Assembly (NCBI RefSeq): GCF_902459465.1
Contig: NC_047075.1
Coordinates: 9,672,001-9,736,000, forward strand
DNA length: 64,000 bases
Origin: Asterias rubens
Lineage: Eukaryota
Direction: 5' to 3'
The translations under genes were made by a program, and so were the position numbers. Below the pieces are notes generated by a model, which saw nothing but the letters and a program-made list of their open reading frames with translations, made no database searches and was not told the origin of the DNA. Shown piece by piece: positions 24,285 through 35,298 of this stretch (positions are counted from its first letter, which is position 1; each line of letters begins with the position of its first letter).

Positions 24285-24292
24285 TATATAAA
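24285..24292 (+). promoter_or_regulatory. TATA box of the secreted peptide precursor gene
   Basis: TATATAAA 45 nt upstream of an ATG that opens a signal-peptide exon. Confidence 0.6.
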
Positions 24293-24336
24293 CCAGAGCT
24301 TCGTTTTATTTTGTATTACTTGTTAAGGCACTCAAT

Positions 24337-24406
24337 ATGAAGGGTCTTGTGTTCTTGACGGTTTTGTTGGTGATTGGCTGCGTTGCTGCGTACAGCGATT
24401 CTAAAG
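24337..24406 (+). CDS. Exon 1 of a secreted Cys-rich peptide precursor (signal peptide)
   Basis: MKGLVFLTVLLVIGCVAAYSDSK plus G, followed by a consensus donor GTAAGT (phase 1). Confidence 0.8.
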
Positions 24407-25830
24407 GTAAGTATTTCCAGACACTACAATTATGTATAATTTTAAATTAACAATTTGCTCAAATTCGAACTTGTTGCCGAAGGCTCAATTACATTGTAAT
24501 GTACATACTAAGTAGGATTTAAAACTTAAGTAAGACAGAGTGAAAATATTTGGGTTAGTGTTTGTTCTGAAAAGAACCAATAGACAATTACGACCGTTAC
24601 CCTCAGGCCGGCGGACCCAAGGAGGATTGGAACCTACCACCACCAGCGAGTGACTACAGTGATATTTTGTTCCCCGCTCCCTTTTTCCTTTTAACTTTCT
24701 CACCCGATTTTGCTCCATCCACTGCCTGTAACCATTTTGCAAACTAACCATGCTTTGATTATGTATTGCATTGTTTTCTGATCTCTGTGTTGTTTCTTCT
24801 AATCTAACATTCTATGCATCCTTGGCCCGACCAGGGTCACAGCTTTGTTATATACCTTTATCACGCTGTCACCATCTTGGTCGTGTTCCCTGTTTCATTG
24901 TTTAAATCAGTACCCGGGAACAAATCCACTAGAAAGAAATCAATGGGATTAAATGGGATTCAATAAGCCTTTTTGAGGTATGGCCAATGTGTTATGTGTA
25001 CACTGTACGTATACACGAATTTACCCAAACCTTTTAGTGTTGTACCATTGTGTCCGCCATATCTCAAAAAGTCTTCTGGGATTGGTGTGGAATTGTGTAC
25101 ACAATCAATGGACTCCAATGGGATCAACAAGGGCAAACCCCTACTCATTTCGAAAAGTGTACTGGGTTCGTGGTACGTGCGTTACGCAACACACGGGACC
25201 AATGATTGTACGTCCCATCCGAAGGACGAAGCAATGGTTAAGTGTCTTGCTTAATGAAACAAGTGTCACGACTGTCTTCGAAACATATTAATATGATTCA
25301 ACGGGATTAATTTGGGTTCAATGGAATCCCTGTGGATCCTATTGGATCTCATGAAAACAAATTGTATAGATAAGGTTCACGTTTGGTATTTACTCAAAGC
25401 AAATATTAACCTAAAAACTGACTTGGTTACGGGCATTGGAGAGCTGTTGATGGTGAAAAAACATTGTGAGAAATGGCTCCCTCTCAAACAACGCAGTTTT
25501 TGAGAAAGGGGTTGTTAATCACCTAAGTATTAAAGGACTTCTAGCTAGAAGTCTTTTATTCATATCACAATCACTATTTATTCAAAGCACACACAATCAT
25601 CCAACAAATTAGGGTATTTTTTTCTTCATCATTTTCTTGCAACTTCGATGACCAATATTGAGCAAAAGTGTTCACAGGTTTGTTGTGTTATGCTTATGAC
25701 ATGTATGATGGGATGCACAAAGTGAGAACACTGGTCTTTGACAATTACCAAACGTGTACAGTGCCTTTAAATATATCCTACATGATGGTTGTGCTGGGAG
25801 AGTAGTTACCAAAAACAGTTTCCATGCTTT

Positions 25831-26090
25831 GGATGTGACGTTGCCGAGCGCGGTTAAGAGTGCCGAATTCAAACTCTGTCGCTTCTGACCAGCAGAGTGT
25901 GTGTTCGATCCCAAGTCGTGACACTTGTTTCCTTAAGCAAGACGCTTAACCATTGTTTCGTCCATTGGATGGGACATAAAGCCGTTGGTTTCATGTGTTG
26001 TGTAACGCATGTAAAAGAACCCAGTGCACCTTTCGAAAAGAGAATGGTTTCGCCCCGATGTTCCTGGCTAGATAAGCCTTACTCCAGGCA
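25831..26090 (+). mobile_element. tRNA-derived SINE; second copy at about 34118-34385
   Basis: A-box-like GTTGCCGAGCGCGG, B-box-like GTTCGATCCC, then the GACACTTGT.TCCTT.AGCAAGAC.CTTAAC core shared with the 34118 copy. Confidence 0.7.
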
Positions 26091-32360: not shown

Positions 32361-32842
32361 TCACACGTGAAGGACTGGTCTACCAGCCATTTTGCAAAGA
32401 GCTCTCTCCAGTCTGTGCATCCCAATCATTCAATTTCCGGCTTCACCACCACGTAGCATAGAAGGCAGCACAATCCTCACCTCCTTCAACATCATTCGGT
32501 TCTCTAGTGTTCCAGTTTATGTAAGCAACCTCCACGCTACCCTCTCTGCACTTCCATCCCCCCCCCCACCTCTTGATCATTACAGTCGATCCATACTACC
32601 CCATCAGATAATTGCGCTGCAAACTCGTTTTCTTGATCAGAGCTTGGTACCGCCAGAACACAACCCAGGTTTTTACACTCGTCTCTAGCATCTGACCAGG
32701 TAAATTTCGTCTCAGTGATCTTGTAGCATGATATTCCCCAGTAATGCTGATCTTGAGATTCAACCACTCTAATGCAATAGCTATCTAACAATGCAGTGAA
32801 CGTTACGAGGAGCACAATATTCACGTTGGCGCTACTGAACAT
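32361..32842 (-). pseudogene. Intronless secreted C-type lectin (EPN-type CTLD) pseudogene
   Basis: MFSSANVNIVLLVTFTALL...SCYKITETKFTWSDARDECKNLGCVLAVPSSDQENEF...VWIDCNDQEV, then a frameshift in a G-run, then WKC...YINWNTREPNDVEGGEDCAAFYATWW*..., with further frameshifts before ...CKMAGRPVLHV*. Confidence 0.85.
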
Positions 32843-34530
32843 GTTGTGTAAACAAAATCCCTGGCACCAGAGTACCAGTTCTACCAATAGATGGCTTTTC
32901 TCAAACCGTGGCAGTTAGTATGTATTTGATTCATTGAAGTTGACACACCAGAAGTTTTTCCCGGGTTGATGTTTCCGATAGTTCTATGCGGCTACATATT
33001 TGTCTTTGATGTTCGTATAGTTGCAGTTTTGACTTCTAGAAATCACGTGAAAGTTTAAAAATTTAGAAAAAAGTTGCTATCTTACGCAGGCTGTGTGTAC
33101 TGTTGCCCTTTGCCGATCTGTTGTCCTGATACCAAACTGGGATCAACAAGTTCTGAAACAAGCTGTACAATAACTGATGAATAGCTGGACTGGCACTTAC
33201 TAATGGACTTCAGCAACGATGAACGTCCAACGGCAGCTTACACGCCAGTATAACACAAAGCTACAGCTCTCCATACGATGATGTTCTTCGCAGAGAGACA
33301 AAGTCGACCCACCAAACGGTTGCATCGCAAGACGAGTTGTGGTATCTCCTGTTTCTGTTCAGCGACCACATTCGATCCTGACCTCGTCTGTTAAAATGCG
33401 CACACTTTGATTGGCTAGACTTATAATAAATCACGAATAAACATGAACACACTTTAAAACTAACAAAAATCAGAAGCGTTGGCAGCAACGGTTTCCGAAC
33501 GTTGAACTTGGTACGACCTACTTTCCGTAGTGATAACATTGATCTGCTCGCGGTGTGATAATCAATGCAATTTCCACATTCTTGAAAGCACACCCAGAAC
33601 AATTAAGATAATATTGGCCTCCGTTTTGCACTTCCCTGCGTACATGGTAACACACGCGCCACCCACATAAGACAAGGGGGCTCGATACTATATTTAGATT
33701 CCCAATACATGACGGGAATCATGTGACGTACTCCGTAACTCCTTAATGATTCCATCGATCTTATCATGGTGTGATTTTAAACATGCTTGAAAGCAGGCCC
33801 AGAGATATTAAGATCTTTAATGATGGCCTCCATTTGTACCTCACGACGCACACCCACACAAAACAAAGGAGCCTTTCGATCGATTCAACAAAGCCGATCA
33901 ATCTTTGCTCTTTTTGAAATCGGCCCGGTTCGTTAGTAATTTTACGGCCAAAGACACGTCATCGAAGAGCGGAGAGCTCGTTTGGTGACAGATTGTGCAC
34001 CTGTCTTTACCCGCAGGGATAATCTCACTCTACACATCAAACTAGCCACCATTATCTAAAGTTCTAAGAGTATTCTCAAAGCATTATGTTCAATGGATGT
34101 GTTAGGTGCTAATATGTGGAAGTGTCATGGCCGAGCGATGATTTCAAACTATGGTGTTTCTGATAAGCAGTGTGTGGGTTCGAGTCCCAGTCGCGACACT
34201 TGTGTCCTTCAAATGGGACGTAAAGCGGTTGGTCCGTTTTGATGCGTAACGCATGAAAAAGAACACAGTGCACTTAATATCGAAAAAAAAAGGGTTCGCC
34301 CGGTGTTCTTTTCTGTGGATGCTAAATGCGCCGTAGCACTCTGTGAATATAAGGTGCTACAAGTGGGTGTCATAATTCAAACTTTTACTAACCTCTCTTT
34401 AGGTTACAAATGTATATACTTAGCGCGCCTCCACTACATTTTAGTAGAAACGTGCGCTATATAAGACTTCAATTTTATAATATTATTATAATGCAGTTGT
34501 CATTAAAAAAAAAACTATCATTTCTTTTAG

Positions 34531-34628
34531 AACGATTTTCATGCTTGACTGGGCGTGTCGAATGCCCGCCGGACCGACCATATTGCCATGATGGTCCGGA
34601 CGGAGTTGGGAGATGTTTTTCAGCTTAA
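34531..34628 (+). CDS. Exon 4 of the peptide precursor: KR cleavage site plus 30-aa mature peptide with 4 Cys
   Basis: tttcttttag|AA CGA TTT...; reads (K)RFSCLTGRVECPPDRPYCHDGPDGVGRCFSA*. A donor GTAATT follows 2 nt after the TAA. Confidence 0.75.
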
Positions 34629-35201
34629 AGGTAATTTTGTTTTGTCTGCATGTAGTTACATTAAACATCCGATGTCGCATTTTAAGGACTTTTGAACTAC
34701 GCCACAGATCGGCGTCAAGAGCCTATACGTCAAATCCCGATTGTCAGTCACTTTAAAAGCAGTGGACACTAGTGGATATTACTCAAAATAAATATTATCA
34801 TAACACCTGTCTTGTTTACGCGTAATGGGGGCAGGTTGGTCGTAATTGTTAAACATTGTGAGAAACGGCTCCCTCTGAAGTGGCATAGTTTTCGAGAAAG
34901 AAATAATTGTCCACGAATTCGATTTCAAGACCTCAGCTTTAGAATTTGAGGTCTCGAAATCAACCATCTGAAAGCACACAACTTCGTGTAACCAGGGTGC
35001 GACAAGGTTTTTTTTTTTTGTTTTATTAATATCTCACAACTTCGACTACCGGTTGGGCTCAAATGTTCACAGGTTTGTTACTGTGTGCATATGTTGAGAC
35101 ACACCAACTGTGAAAACTAGTCTTTGACAATTACCAACAATTTCTAGTATCTTTATCACAATTCGTAATAAAAGACAATTGGTTTAATCTTTTGACAACA
35201 G

Positions 35202-35298
35202 GTCCATGCGATAGAAGTGGAGCTGGGCTACTGAAACACTGAGTAATCATTGAAGCATTAACTCACGTTGTCATTGCGGTAAACATAAAGACAATAAA
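35202..35298 (+). other. Candidate 3'UTR exon of the peptide gene, ending near AATAAA (35293-35298)
   Basis: Acceptor ttttgacaacag|G at 35201/35202 and AATAAA about 90 nt later; this is inference only. Confidence 0.4.

What the first reader, a model, noticed from the sequence alone, without database searches (positions are those of the whole stretch)
24285..35298. Hidden 4-exon gene for a secreted precursor of a 30-aa, two-disulfide peptide
Seen: four micro-exons (70, 57, 48 and 98 coding nt) with canonical GT/AG sites, all phase 1, join into one stop-free 90-aa ORF: MKGLVFLTVLLVIGCVAAYSDSK-DDLTLRELLVKLKRHLETE-EYAAQEELEGRHFGEY-KR-FSCLTGRVECPPDRPYCHDGPDGVGRCFSA*. The KR site forms only across the exon 3/4 junction, and a TATA box and a candidate AATAAA bracket the gene. 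Known: signal peptide + acidic propeptide + dibasic site + short Cys-rich C-terminal peptide is the prohormone-convertase-processed layout of neuropeptides, toxins and antimicrobial peptides. Inference: the product is a roughly 3.2-kDa peptide with a C-x6-C-x6-C-x9-C frame that I do not recognise as any named echinoderm family. A second KR and a GR in the pro-region could release further small peptides. It is absent as a whole from the ORF track.
Basis: partly seen in the sequence, partly recalled or inferred. Interest (0 to 1): 0.85.

Follow-up and report, generated by a model that had tools for sequence, protein, structure and literature searches.

The report
Starfish KARTESH wound-response peptide gene
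This is a real, already annotated common-starfish gene for a small secreted peptide with two disulfide bonds; it belongs to the published injury-associated KARTESH family, whose function is still unproven.

Summary
In detail: four GT-AG, phase-1 coding exons give a stop-free 90-aa precursor. It is not new. The spliced protein is letter-for-letter RefSeq LOC117299681 of Asterias rubens, with gap-free 90-aa relatives in A. amurensis (89%) and in an unnamed NCBI record (66%). Its layout (signal peptide, acidic region, KR, four-Cys mature peptide) defines the published KARTESH peptides of A. rubens coelomic fluid (PMC11891777). A profile of the three mature peptides hit only 2 of 177,635 PDB sequences, both Kartesh 2 (E 0.53 and 0.85; 10 identities in 21 columns). 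At 30 residues with no amidation signal it fits KASH1 (about 0.7), whose sequence I could not see. A KASH2-like disulfide-directed beta-hairpin is inferred: AlphaFold gives the hairpin, but fold searches did not retrieve KASH2. The peptide has net charge -1 and is better conserved than its pro-region (24/30 against 20/39). That points to a ligand for a conserved starfish target rather than a lytic antimicrobial or venom toxin. The extra KR and GR sites are not conserved. New here: the exon structure, the orthologues, and a probable non-coding fifth exon.

The parts
24285..24291 (+). TATA box candidate (TATATAA), 52 nt upstream of the ATG
   Evidence: function inferred
24337..24406 (+). Coding exon 1: signal peptide (probably residues 1-18, 24337-24390) and start of the pro-region; phase-1 donor
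   Evidence: hydropathy up to 3.3; small-residue -3/-1 sites after residues 15, 17 and 18 in 3 of 3 relatives; SignalP not run
24407..29821 (+). Intron 1, 5415 nt, GT-AG, phase 1
29822..29878 (+). Coding exon 2: pro-region with an 11-residue stretch (26-36) invariant in 3 of 3 relatives; non-conserved KR at residues 36-37
29879..30752 (+). Intron 2, 874 nt, GT-AG, phase 1
30753..30800 (+). Coding exon 3: acidic spacer, ending in the first base of the Lys59 codon
30801..34530 (+). Intron 3, 3730 nt, GT-AG, phase 1; holds a decayed antisense C-type lectin domain
34531..34628 (+). Coding exon 4: rest of the KR site, the whole mature peptide and the stop codon
34536..34625 (+). Predicted mature 30-aa KARTESH-type peptide, Cys at 3, 10, 17, 27 (C-x6-C-x6-C-x9-C), free-acid C-terminus, net charge -1, pI 5.4
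34631..35201 (+). Probable 3' UTR intron (GTAATT...ACAG) holding a dispersed repeat copy at about 34753-35158
   Evidence: inferred, no RNA data
35202..35298 (+). Probable non-coding exon 5 with AATAAA at 35293-35298; unique sequence in the window
   Evidence: inferred

Best explanation
The locus is the Asterias rubens gene LOC117299681, a member of the KARTESH family and most likely KARTESH-1 (KASH1). Shown: the exon chain, identity to the RefSeq protein, and conservation of the KR site and four Cys in three sequences. Inferred from the anatomy: the 18-residue signal peptide sends the precursor into the secretory pathway; a prohormone convertase cuts after Lys59-Arg60; the released 30-residue acid peptide folds like KASH2, with Cys I-III and Cys II-IV bonds bracing a C-terminal beta-hairpin (strands 16-19 and 25-28 around a Pro/Ser-Asp-Gly turn). 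Inferred from the family literature: it is released into coelomic fluid and rises after wounding. Most likely mode of action: a protease-resistant humoral ligand that binds a conserved starfish protein (a coelomocyte or epithelial receptor) during the injury response, rather than lysing membranes or acting as a venom toxin. Odds by step: real expressed gene 0.98; KARTESH family 0.9; KASH1 itself 0.7; KASH2-like fold 0.8; endogenous injury-signal role 0.5.
For: The spliced ORF equals P0001, RefSeq LOC117299681. P0002 (A. amurensis, 89%) and P0003 (66%) align without gaps. P0003 lies whole on an 864-nt record while the gene spans over 10 kb here, so it is probably a spliced transcript (inference). 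PMC11891777 defines KARTESH as signal peptide, acidic region, convertase site and a four-Cys mature peptide of 28-30 residues, upregulated after injury; KASH2 has 28 residues and KASH1 lacks the amidation motif. This peptide has 30 residues, no amidation motif, and comes from the same species. The family was noted as a lead, before the search, where the only 2 hits among 177,635 PDB sequences were 8V2U and 8V2M (Kartesh 2). The alignment shows 10 identities in 21 columns, with Cys II, III and IV and the hairpin residues in register, and a conditional E of 3.9e-6. P0003 alone also lists both entries, ranks 6 and 9 of 9. AlphaFold gives the hairpin at 16-19/25-28, mean pLDDT 90.5, in register with the KASH2 hydrogen-bond ladder 14-25, 16-23, 18-21. 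Ligand-like selection: mature 24/30 against pro-region 20/39 identical between P0001 and P0003, Fisher p 0.022, and 0.043 without the Cys. Net charge is -1, -1 and 0 in the three peptides.
Against: The KASH1 sequence was never seen: Fig. 1 is an image and the 2019 proteomics paper is not held. The authors also retrieved further DDH sequences from the A. rubens genome, so this may be another paralogue. The PDB E-values (0.53, 0.85) are not significant as a blind search. Single-sequence phmmer with the window peptide and the full-length profile missed KASH2. No fold search on either model listed 8V2M or 8V2U. Disulfide pairing is not reported by the tools. Loops II-III and III-IV are each one residue longer than in KASH2. 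KASH2 did not stimulate human fibroblasts and no function is known. The conservation contrast rests on one pairwise comparison. ESM Atlas look-alikes of the precursor are spider and cone-snail toxin precursors, at lead level only (0.86 or less).
Confidence: 0.6

Rival explanations
1. Same family and processing, but a different KARTESH paralogue (not KASH1), known only as an uncharacterised RefSeq model and perhaps not injury-regulated.
For: PMC11891777 mentions further DDH sequences from the A. rubens genome and loop-length variation among homologues. The KASH1 sequence was not visible. No paper in the library held the locus id or any of four short motifs.
Against: Species, the 30-residue length and the free-acid C-terminus all match what the text says or implies of KASH1. 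The text searches cannot see sequences printed in figures.
Confidence: 0.3
2. A non-lytic antimicrobial or defence effector of coelomic fluid that binds a microbial surface target.
For: The family rises after puncture wounds, along with pattern-recognition proteins. Weak fold neighbours of model 1 include antimicrobial knottins Ep-AMP1 and tachystatin B (Z 2.1-2.5). The window also holds PAN-fibrinogen and lectin genes.
Against: Net charge -1 to 0 and pI 5.4-6.7, whereas strongylocins are cationic with six Cys. The mature region is the most conserved part. Z scores near 2 are at noise level.
Confidence: 0.2
3. A neuropeptide or peptide hormone made in nerve or endocrine cells and acting through a GPCR, with no special link to injury.
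For: Prohormone layout, an invariant KR site and a mature region more conserved than the pro-region.
Against: A text search of the A. rubens neuropeptide catalogue PMC4772807 found no 89-, 90- or 91-residue precursor (passages only). There is no amidation signal and no Pfam family (0 of 3 proteins). The family was found in coelomic fluid.
Confidence: 0.12
4. A small disulfide-braced protease inhibitor that limits proteolysis at the wound.
For: Peptidase inhibitors are a main class of injury-upregulated proteins in this fluid. Loop I has six residues with an invariant Arg, a loop length recalled from squash-type inhibitors (own knowledge, no call).
Against: The Arg is fourth in the loop, not second as recalled for squash inhibitors. 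There is no sequence match to any inhibitor among 177,635 PDB sequences at E up to 10.
Confidence: 0.1
5. A defensive toxin acting on ion channels of predators or parasites, like scorpion DDH toxins.
For: KASH2 shares fold and disulfide pattern with scorpion U1-LITX-Lw1a. The nearest ESM Atlas clusters for the precursor are spider and cone-snail toxins (0.78-0.86).
Against: All Atlas scores are under 0.9. There is no paralogue array in the 64-kb window. The mature region is conserved rather than hypervariable and acidic. The gene structure differs from scorpion ICK genes.
Confidence: 0.07
6. The exon chain is a chance assembly, not a gene.
For: No RNA reads could be examined; the micro-exons are short and lie in repeat-rich DNA.
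Against: Identical RefSeq protein and two gap-free relatives; no competing exons.
Confidence: 0.01

Closest known systems
LOC117299681, uncharacterized protein, Asterias rubens (RefSeq/UniRef)
   Same: All 90 residues identical.
   Different: Nothing at protein level; the record carries no family name.
KARTESH-1 (KASH1), A. rubens coelomic-fluid peptide (Shabelnikov 2019, known to me only through PMC11891777)
   Same: Species; signal, acidic region, dibasic site, four-Cys layout; mature length at the top of the stated 28-30 range; no amidation motif.
   Different: Unknown, because its sequence could not be seen; possibly the same gene.
KARTESH-2 (KASH2; PDB 8V2M, 8V2U), disulfide-directed beta-hairpin peptide
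   Same: Precursor layout; 10 identities in 21 columns, with Cys II, III, IV and the hairpin motif in register; hairpin position.
   Different: KASH2 has 28 residues with an amidation signal; its loops II-III and III-IV are each one residue shorter (5 and 8 against 6 and 9). The authors found no KASH2 homologues outside A. rubens, whereas this gene has two relatives.
CHUPA 1-3, A. rubens
   Same: Signal, acidic region, convertase site, four Cys.
   Different: Mature peptides of 35-48 residues against 30 here; sequences not seen.
Scorpion DDH and ICK peptides (U1-LITX-Lw1a, lambda-MK1, opicalcine)
   Same: Signal-pro-mature precursor; DDH-type fold inferred through KASH2; a phase-1 intron just after the signal peptide, which PMC5308243 calls a general feature of secreted proteins and no sign of kinship.
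   Different: ICK peptides have six Cys and a phase-2 intron at the start of the mature peptide. Here the last coding intron is phase 1 and inside the Lys codon of the KR site. The gene structure of scorpion DDH genes was not seen.
Echinoderm antimicrobial peptides (strongylocins, centrocins, PpCrAMP)
   Same: Small, Cys-containing echinoderm peptides; PpCrAMP is predicted to be a beta-hairpin.
   Different: Strongylocins are cationic with six Cys and brominated Trp; centrocins are heterodimers. This peptide is acidic, has four Cys and no Trp.

Membership tests
KARTESH | N-terminal signal peptide | tested here: met
   Hydropathy up to 3.3 in the first 18 residues and -3/-1 small-residue sites in 3 of 3 relatives; SignalP not available.
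KARTESH | Acidic pro-region | tested here: met
   Residues 20-58 hold 11 D/E against 6 K/R (10:6 and 12:8 in the relatives).
KARTESH | Dibasic convertase site between acidic and Cys-rich regions | tested here: met
   K59-R60, invariant in 3 of 3; actual cleavage not shown.
KARTESH | Mature peptide of 28-30 residues with four Cys | tested here: met
   30 residues, Cys at 3, 10, 17, 27; definition from PMC11891777.
KARTESH | Sequence relationship to a named member | tested here: met
   Only 2 hits of 177,635 PDB sequences, both Kartesh 2, 10 identities in 21 columns. E 0.53-0.85 is weak as a blind search, but the target was named beforehand. Missed.
KARTESH-1 (KASH1) itself | Identity to UniParc UPI000FECD03F | not testable with these tools
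   Sequence only in a figure; primary paper not held; cluster look-up could not be made.
KARTESH | Present in coelomic fluid and upregulated after injury | not testable with these tools
   Needs PRIDE PXD010228 or RNA-seq; the supplement of PMC13409769 could not be read.
DDH fold | C-terminal beta-hairpin carrying Cys III and Cys IV | tested here: met
   Both AlphaFold models have strands at 16-19 and 24/25-28; predicted, not solved.
DDH fold | Disulfides Cys I-III and Cys II-IV | not testable with these tools
   The tools do not report pairings; inferred from KASH2.
DDH fold | Structural superposition on a solved DDH peptide | tested here: inconclusive
   Best Z 2.1-2.7, with knottins, Evasin-3, granulin N-terminal and EGF-type hairpins; a 30-residue query is at the limit of these programs.
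DDH fold | Strict spacing of five residues between Cys II and Cys III (consensus recalled, from no call; KASH2 has five) | tested here: not met
   Six residues here, so I call the fold DDH-like by inference and do not file it as a confirmed DDH.
CHUPA | Mature peptide of 35-48 residues | tested here: not met
   30 residues.
Strongylocin-type antimicrobial peptides | Cationic, six Cys | tested here: not met
   Net charge -1, four Cys.
Scorpion ICK toxins | Six-Cys knot; phase-2 intron at the start of the mature peptide | tested here: not met
   Four Cys; all coding introns phase 1.
Catalogued A. rubens neuropeptide precursors (PMC4772807) | A listed precursor of this length and layout | tested here: inconclusive
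   No '89-', '90-' or '91-residue' in the main text; only passages were read and figure sequences are not searchable.

The most novel reading that the evidence does not exclude
This is an undescribed, conserved KARTESH paralogue, and KARTESH peptides are an echinoderm class of disulfide-hairpin injury hormones or cytokines with an orphan receptor. The all-phase-1 gene, with the whole mature peptide on one exon joined inside the KR site, would then record how a DDH-like module was attached to a prohormone leader by exon shuffling, independently of arachnid DDH/ICK toxins.
Probability: 0.15. Interest if true: 0.55.

Novelty: already known. Interest (0 to 1): 0.24.

Why it matters
The gene is in RefSeq and its family has a name and a solved member, so this is not a discovery. 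What it adds is modest. It links an 'uncharacterized' locus to KARTESH and gives the exon-intron structure, which bears on the origin question that PMC11891777 leaves to further genomic analysis; the structure differs from scorpion ICK genes and fits independent origin. It also supplies relatives whose conservation pattern suggests a fixed target. If the peptide proves to be an injury signal with its own receptor, it would be a handle on starfish wound healing and regeneration.

Tried and rejected
Paralogues in the window: none by tblastn or blastn of each exon or by profile search of 3317 six-frame segments; after the four exons the next E-value was 0.085. Pfam: 0 families for 3 of 3 precursors. 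PDB sequence search with the single peptide gave 4 unrelated hits, and with the full-length profile 3 unrelated hits. The search of 1.84 billion representatives gave 2 hits: P0003, and P0005, a repetitive 238-aa protein matching only a 14-residue stretch, which I rejected. P0004 is exon 1 read through into intron 1 in other DNA of this locus, not a separate protein. Fold searches on two models did not list 8V2M or 8V2U, and no match reached Z 3 or E 0.001. ESM Atlas: no score of 0.9 or more. The pro-region helix is not more amphipathic than shuffles (fractions 0.17-0.40). Extra peptides from K36-R37 and G52-R53 were rejected as unconserved. Acanthaster attractins (PMC11957666, passages) were rejected: restricted to Acanthaster, no mention of cysteine. 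Literature searches for the locus id and four short motifs found 0 papers. One supplement of PMC11595613 had no KARTESH term. The primary 2019 paper is not held, the supplement of PMC13409769 was too large to read, and the cluster look-up for accession numbers could not be made. Unchecked: RNA-seq, echinoderm genome and TSA nucleotide collections (no tool), and the metagenome and viral contig collections (closed). The bacterial and archaeal genome collection was not scanned as it does not bear on a starfish gene.
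Full report
Observation. They are separated by GT-AG introns of 5415, 874 and 3730 nt, all phase 1, and read as 90 codons without a stop. The Lys59 codon is split by intron 3, so the KR site forms only on splicing. 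TATATAA starts at 24285 and AATAAA at 35293. With a simple splice score and thresholds taken from the weaker real exon, the only symmetric phase-1, stop-free 30-150-nt exons in the 10.1 kb between exons 1 and 4 are exons 2 and 3. The four-Cys pattern alone is weak: 2 matches in six frames against 0.13 per shuffle over 30 shuffles. One addition: a donor lies 2 nt after the stop codon (34631) and an acceptor ends at 35201. Between them is a copy of a dispersed repeat, and the sequence after the acceptor is unique and holds the AATAAA. A fifth, non-coding exon is therefore likely, but it is inferred, and its acceptor scores lower than the others.

The gene is already annotated. A search with exon 4 returned two 90-aa proteins: Asterias rubens LOC117299681 and an A. 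amurensis protein. The first is identical to the spliced ORF, so the window is A. rubens or indistinguishable from it at this protein. A search with the whole precursor added P0003, 66% identical and encoded whole on an 864-nt record, which suggests a spliced transcript of a relative (inference). It also returned P0004, which is exon 1 read into intron 1. A profile search added nothing (4 hits among 37 candidates), and the search of 1.84 billion representatives gave only P0003 and one repetitive false match. The three full-length proteins align without gaps. No paralogue lies in the window and Pfam has no family for any of the three.

The family is named. PMC11891777 (I read parts 1-4 of 5 of the text and the supplement text; figures are not visible) describes KARTESH (KASH1, KASH2) and CHUPA. 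[quoted passage not shown] KASH2 has 28 residues and an amidation signal and folds as a disulfide-directed beta-hairpin with Cys I-III and II-IV bonds; KASH1 lacks the amidation motif. The window's peptide has 30 residues, four Cys and a free-acid end. I noted this lead and then tested it. A profile of the three mature peptides matched exactly 2 of 177,635 PDB sequences at E up to 10, and both were Kartesh 2 (8V2U, E 0.53; 8V2M, E 0.85). There are 10 identities in 21 columns, including Cys II, III and IV and the Tyr, Asp, Asp-Gly, Gly and Phe of the hairpin, with one extra residue in each of two loops. As blind E-values these are weak. For a target named in advance the conditional value is about 4e-6, and no other small Cys-rich peptide in the bank was listed. 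P0003 alone also lists both entries, at ranks 6 and 9 of 9. Against this, the single window peptide and the full-length profile missed them. With two named members and a range of 28-30, KASH1 should have 30 residues, so this gene is probably KASH1 (about 0.7). I could not see the KASH1 sequence: it is in a figure, the 2019 primary paper is not held, and the cluster look-up could not be made. The authors also retrieved other DDH sequences from the A. rubens genome, so another paralogue is possible. Unseen supplements, notably that of PMC13409769 (passages of the main text only), may list the protein.

Fold. AlphaFold models of the 30-mer have mean pLDDT 82.7 (single sequence) and 90.5 (three sequences), with a hairpin at residues 16-19 and 24/25-28. 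This is in register with the KASH2 hydrogen-bond ladder. Fold searches gave only weak neighbours: knottins, Evasin-3, the granulin N-terminal hairpin and EGF or follistatin modules, at Z 2.1-2.7 and no E under 0.001. KASH2 was not listed. Disulfide pairing is not reported. The DDH-like fold is therefore inferred from homology to KASH2, and the strict five-residue II-III spacing that I recall for DDH is exceeded by one.

How it most likely works. The signal peptide (probably residues 1-18; SignalP not run) routes the precursor for secretion, a convertase cuts after K59-R60, and a compact 3.24-kDa peptide is released. Between P0001 and P0003 the mature part is the best conserved (24/30), ahead of the signal (13/19) and pro-region (20/39); mature against pro gives p 0.022, or 0.043 without Cys. 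From general knowledge, that order is typical of hormones and ligands and the reverse of fast-evolving venom peptides. The net charge is -1 to 0, unlike cationic strongylocins (PMC11767717, passages). With the family's rise after wounding, the likeliest role is a stable humoral ligand for a conserved starfish target in the injury response (about 0.5). Antimicrobial (0.2), neuropeptide (0.12), protease-inhibitor (0.1) and toxin (0.07) roles remain open. KASH2 had no effect on human fibroblasts, and no function has been shown for any member in what I read. ESM Atlas look-alikes are spider and cone-snail toxin precursors, all under 0.9, which probably reflects the shared signal-pro-Cys layout. 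An 11-residue stretch of the pro-region is invariant in all three proteins, though not unusually amphipathic; a sorting or folding role is possible and untested.

Comparison with other systems. Scorpion ICK genes have a phase-1 intron in the propeptide and a phase-2 intron at the start of the mature peptide (PMC5308243 and PMC3694633, passages). Here all three coding introns are phase 1 and the last falls inside the KR site, which fits the independent origin argued in PMC11891777. Gene structures of scorpion DDH genes were not seen. The A. rubens neuropeptide catalogue (PMC4772807, passages) names no 89-91-residue precursor. Acanthaster attractins (PMC11957666, passages) are unrelated. Searches for the locus id and four short motifs found no paper in the library; figures are not searchable, so this does not show the sequence is unpublished. 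PMC9410279 (passages) and one supplement of PMC11595613 added nothing.

Verdict. This is an annotated gene of a named family, probably a named member. Interest is 0.24, for the open function, the gene structure and the relatives.

Noticed in passing
window 16-5088 (-): Tandem array of about 35 units of 150 nt; ARAGORN tRNA genes, mostly tRNA-Met (CAT), with variant copies called Asn (ATT), Ile or undetermined.
   Followed up: no
window about 32380-32740 (-), inside intron 3: Decayed C-type lectin domain nested antisense in the gene: Pfam Lectin_C E 6e-6, an EPND motif at 32491-32502, a frameshift at a G run and internal stops; a pseudogene or an assembly homopolymer error.
   Followed up: partly
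window 56434-57432 (+); 41345-41842 and 53640-54236 (+): Two intronless PAN plus fibrinogen-C genes. One is intact; the other is split by about 11.8 kb of inserted retroelements.
   Followed up: partly
window 43544-52811: Ty3/Gypsy-type element inserted in a LINE, with 174-nt terminal repeats 100% identical (recent insertion) that begin CGCCA and end TGGCG rather than TG...CA. The RT motif reads LADD instead of the usual YxDD (recalled), and about 3.3 kb of other DNA lies between the gag-like and pol frames.
   Followed up: partly
window 8833-9573 (-) and 4891-5433 (-): Fragments of a Cys-rich (weak ephrin-receptor-like match, E 0.0035) membrane protein with hydrophobic segments.
   Followed up: no
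window 34753-35158 and more than ten other places, e.g. 15521-15875, 19265-19634, 22189-22530, 59490-59855: Dispersed repeat family of about 400 nt, 64-88% identical, in both orientations; possibly a non-autonomous DNA transposon.
   Followed up: no
window 29827-29859 (+): Pro-region residues 26-36 are invariant in all three precursors although the rest of the pro-region is about half conserved; unexplained.
   Followed up: partly
window 24407-24530 against P0004: An unnamed ENA protein matches exon 1 and intron 1 read-through but changes frame a few codons into the intron, suggesting another allele or close relative with an intronic indel.
   Followed up: partly
window 5089-5188, 11162-11473, 61536-61892: Three assembly gaps (runs of N); none lies inside the gene.
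   Followed up: yes
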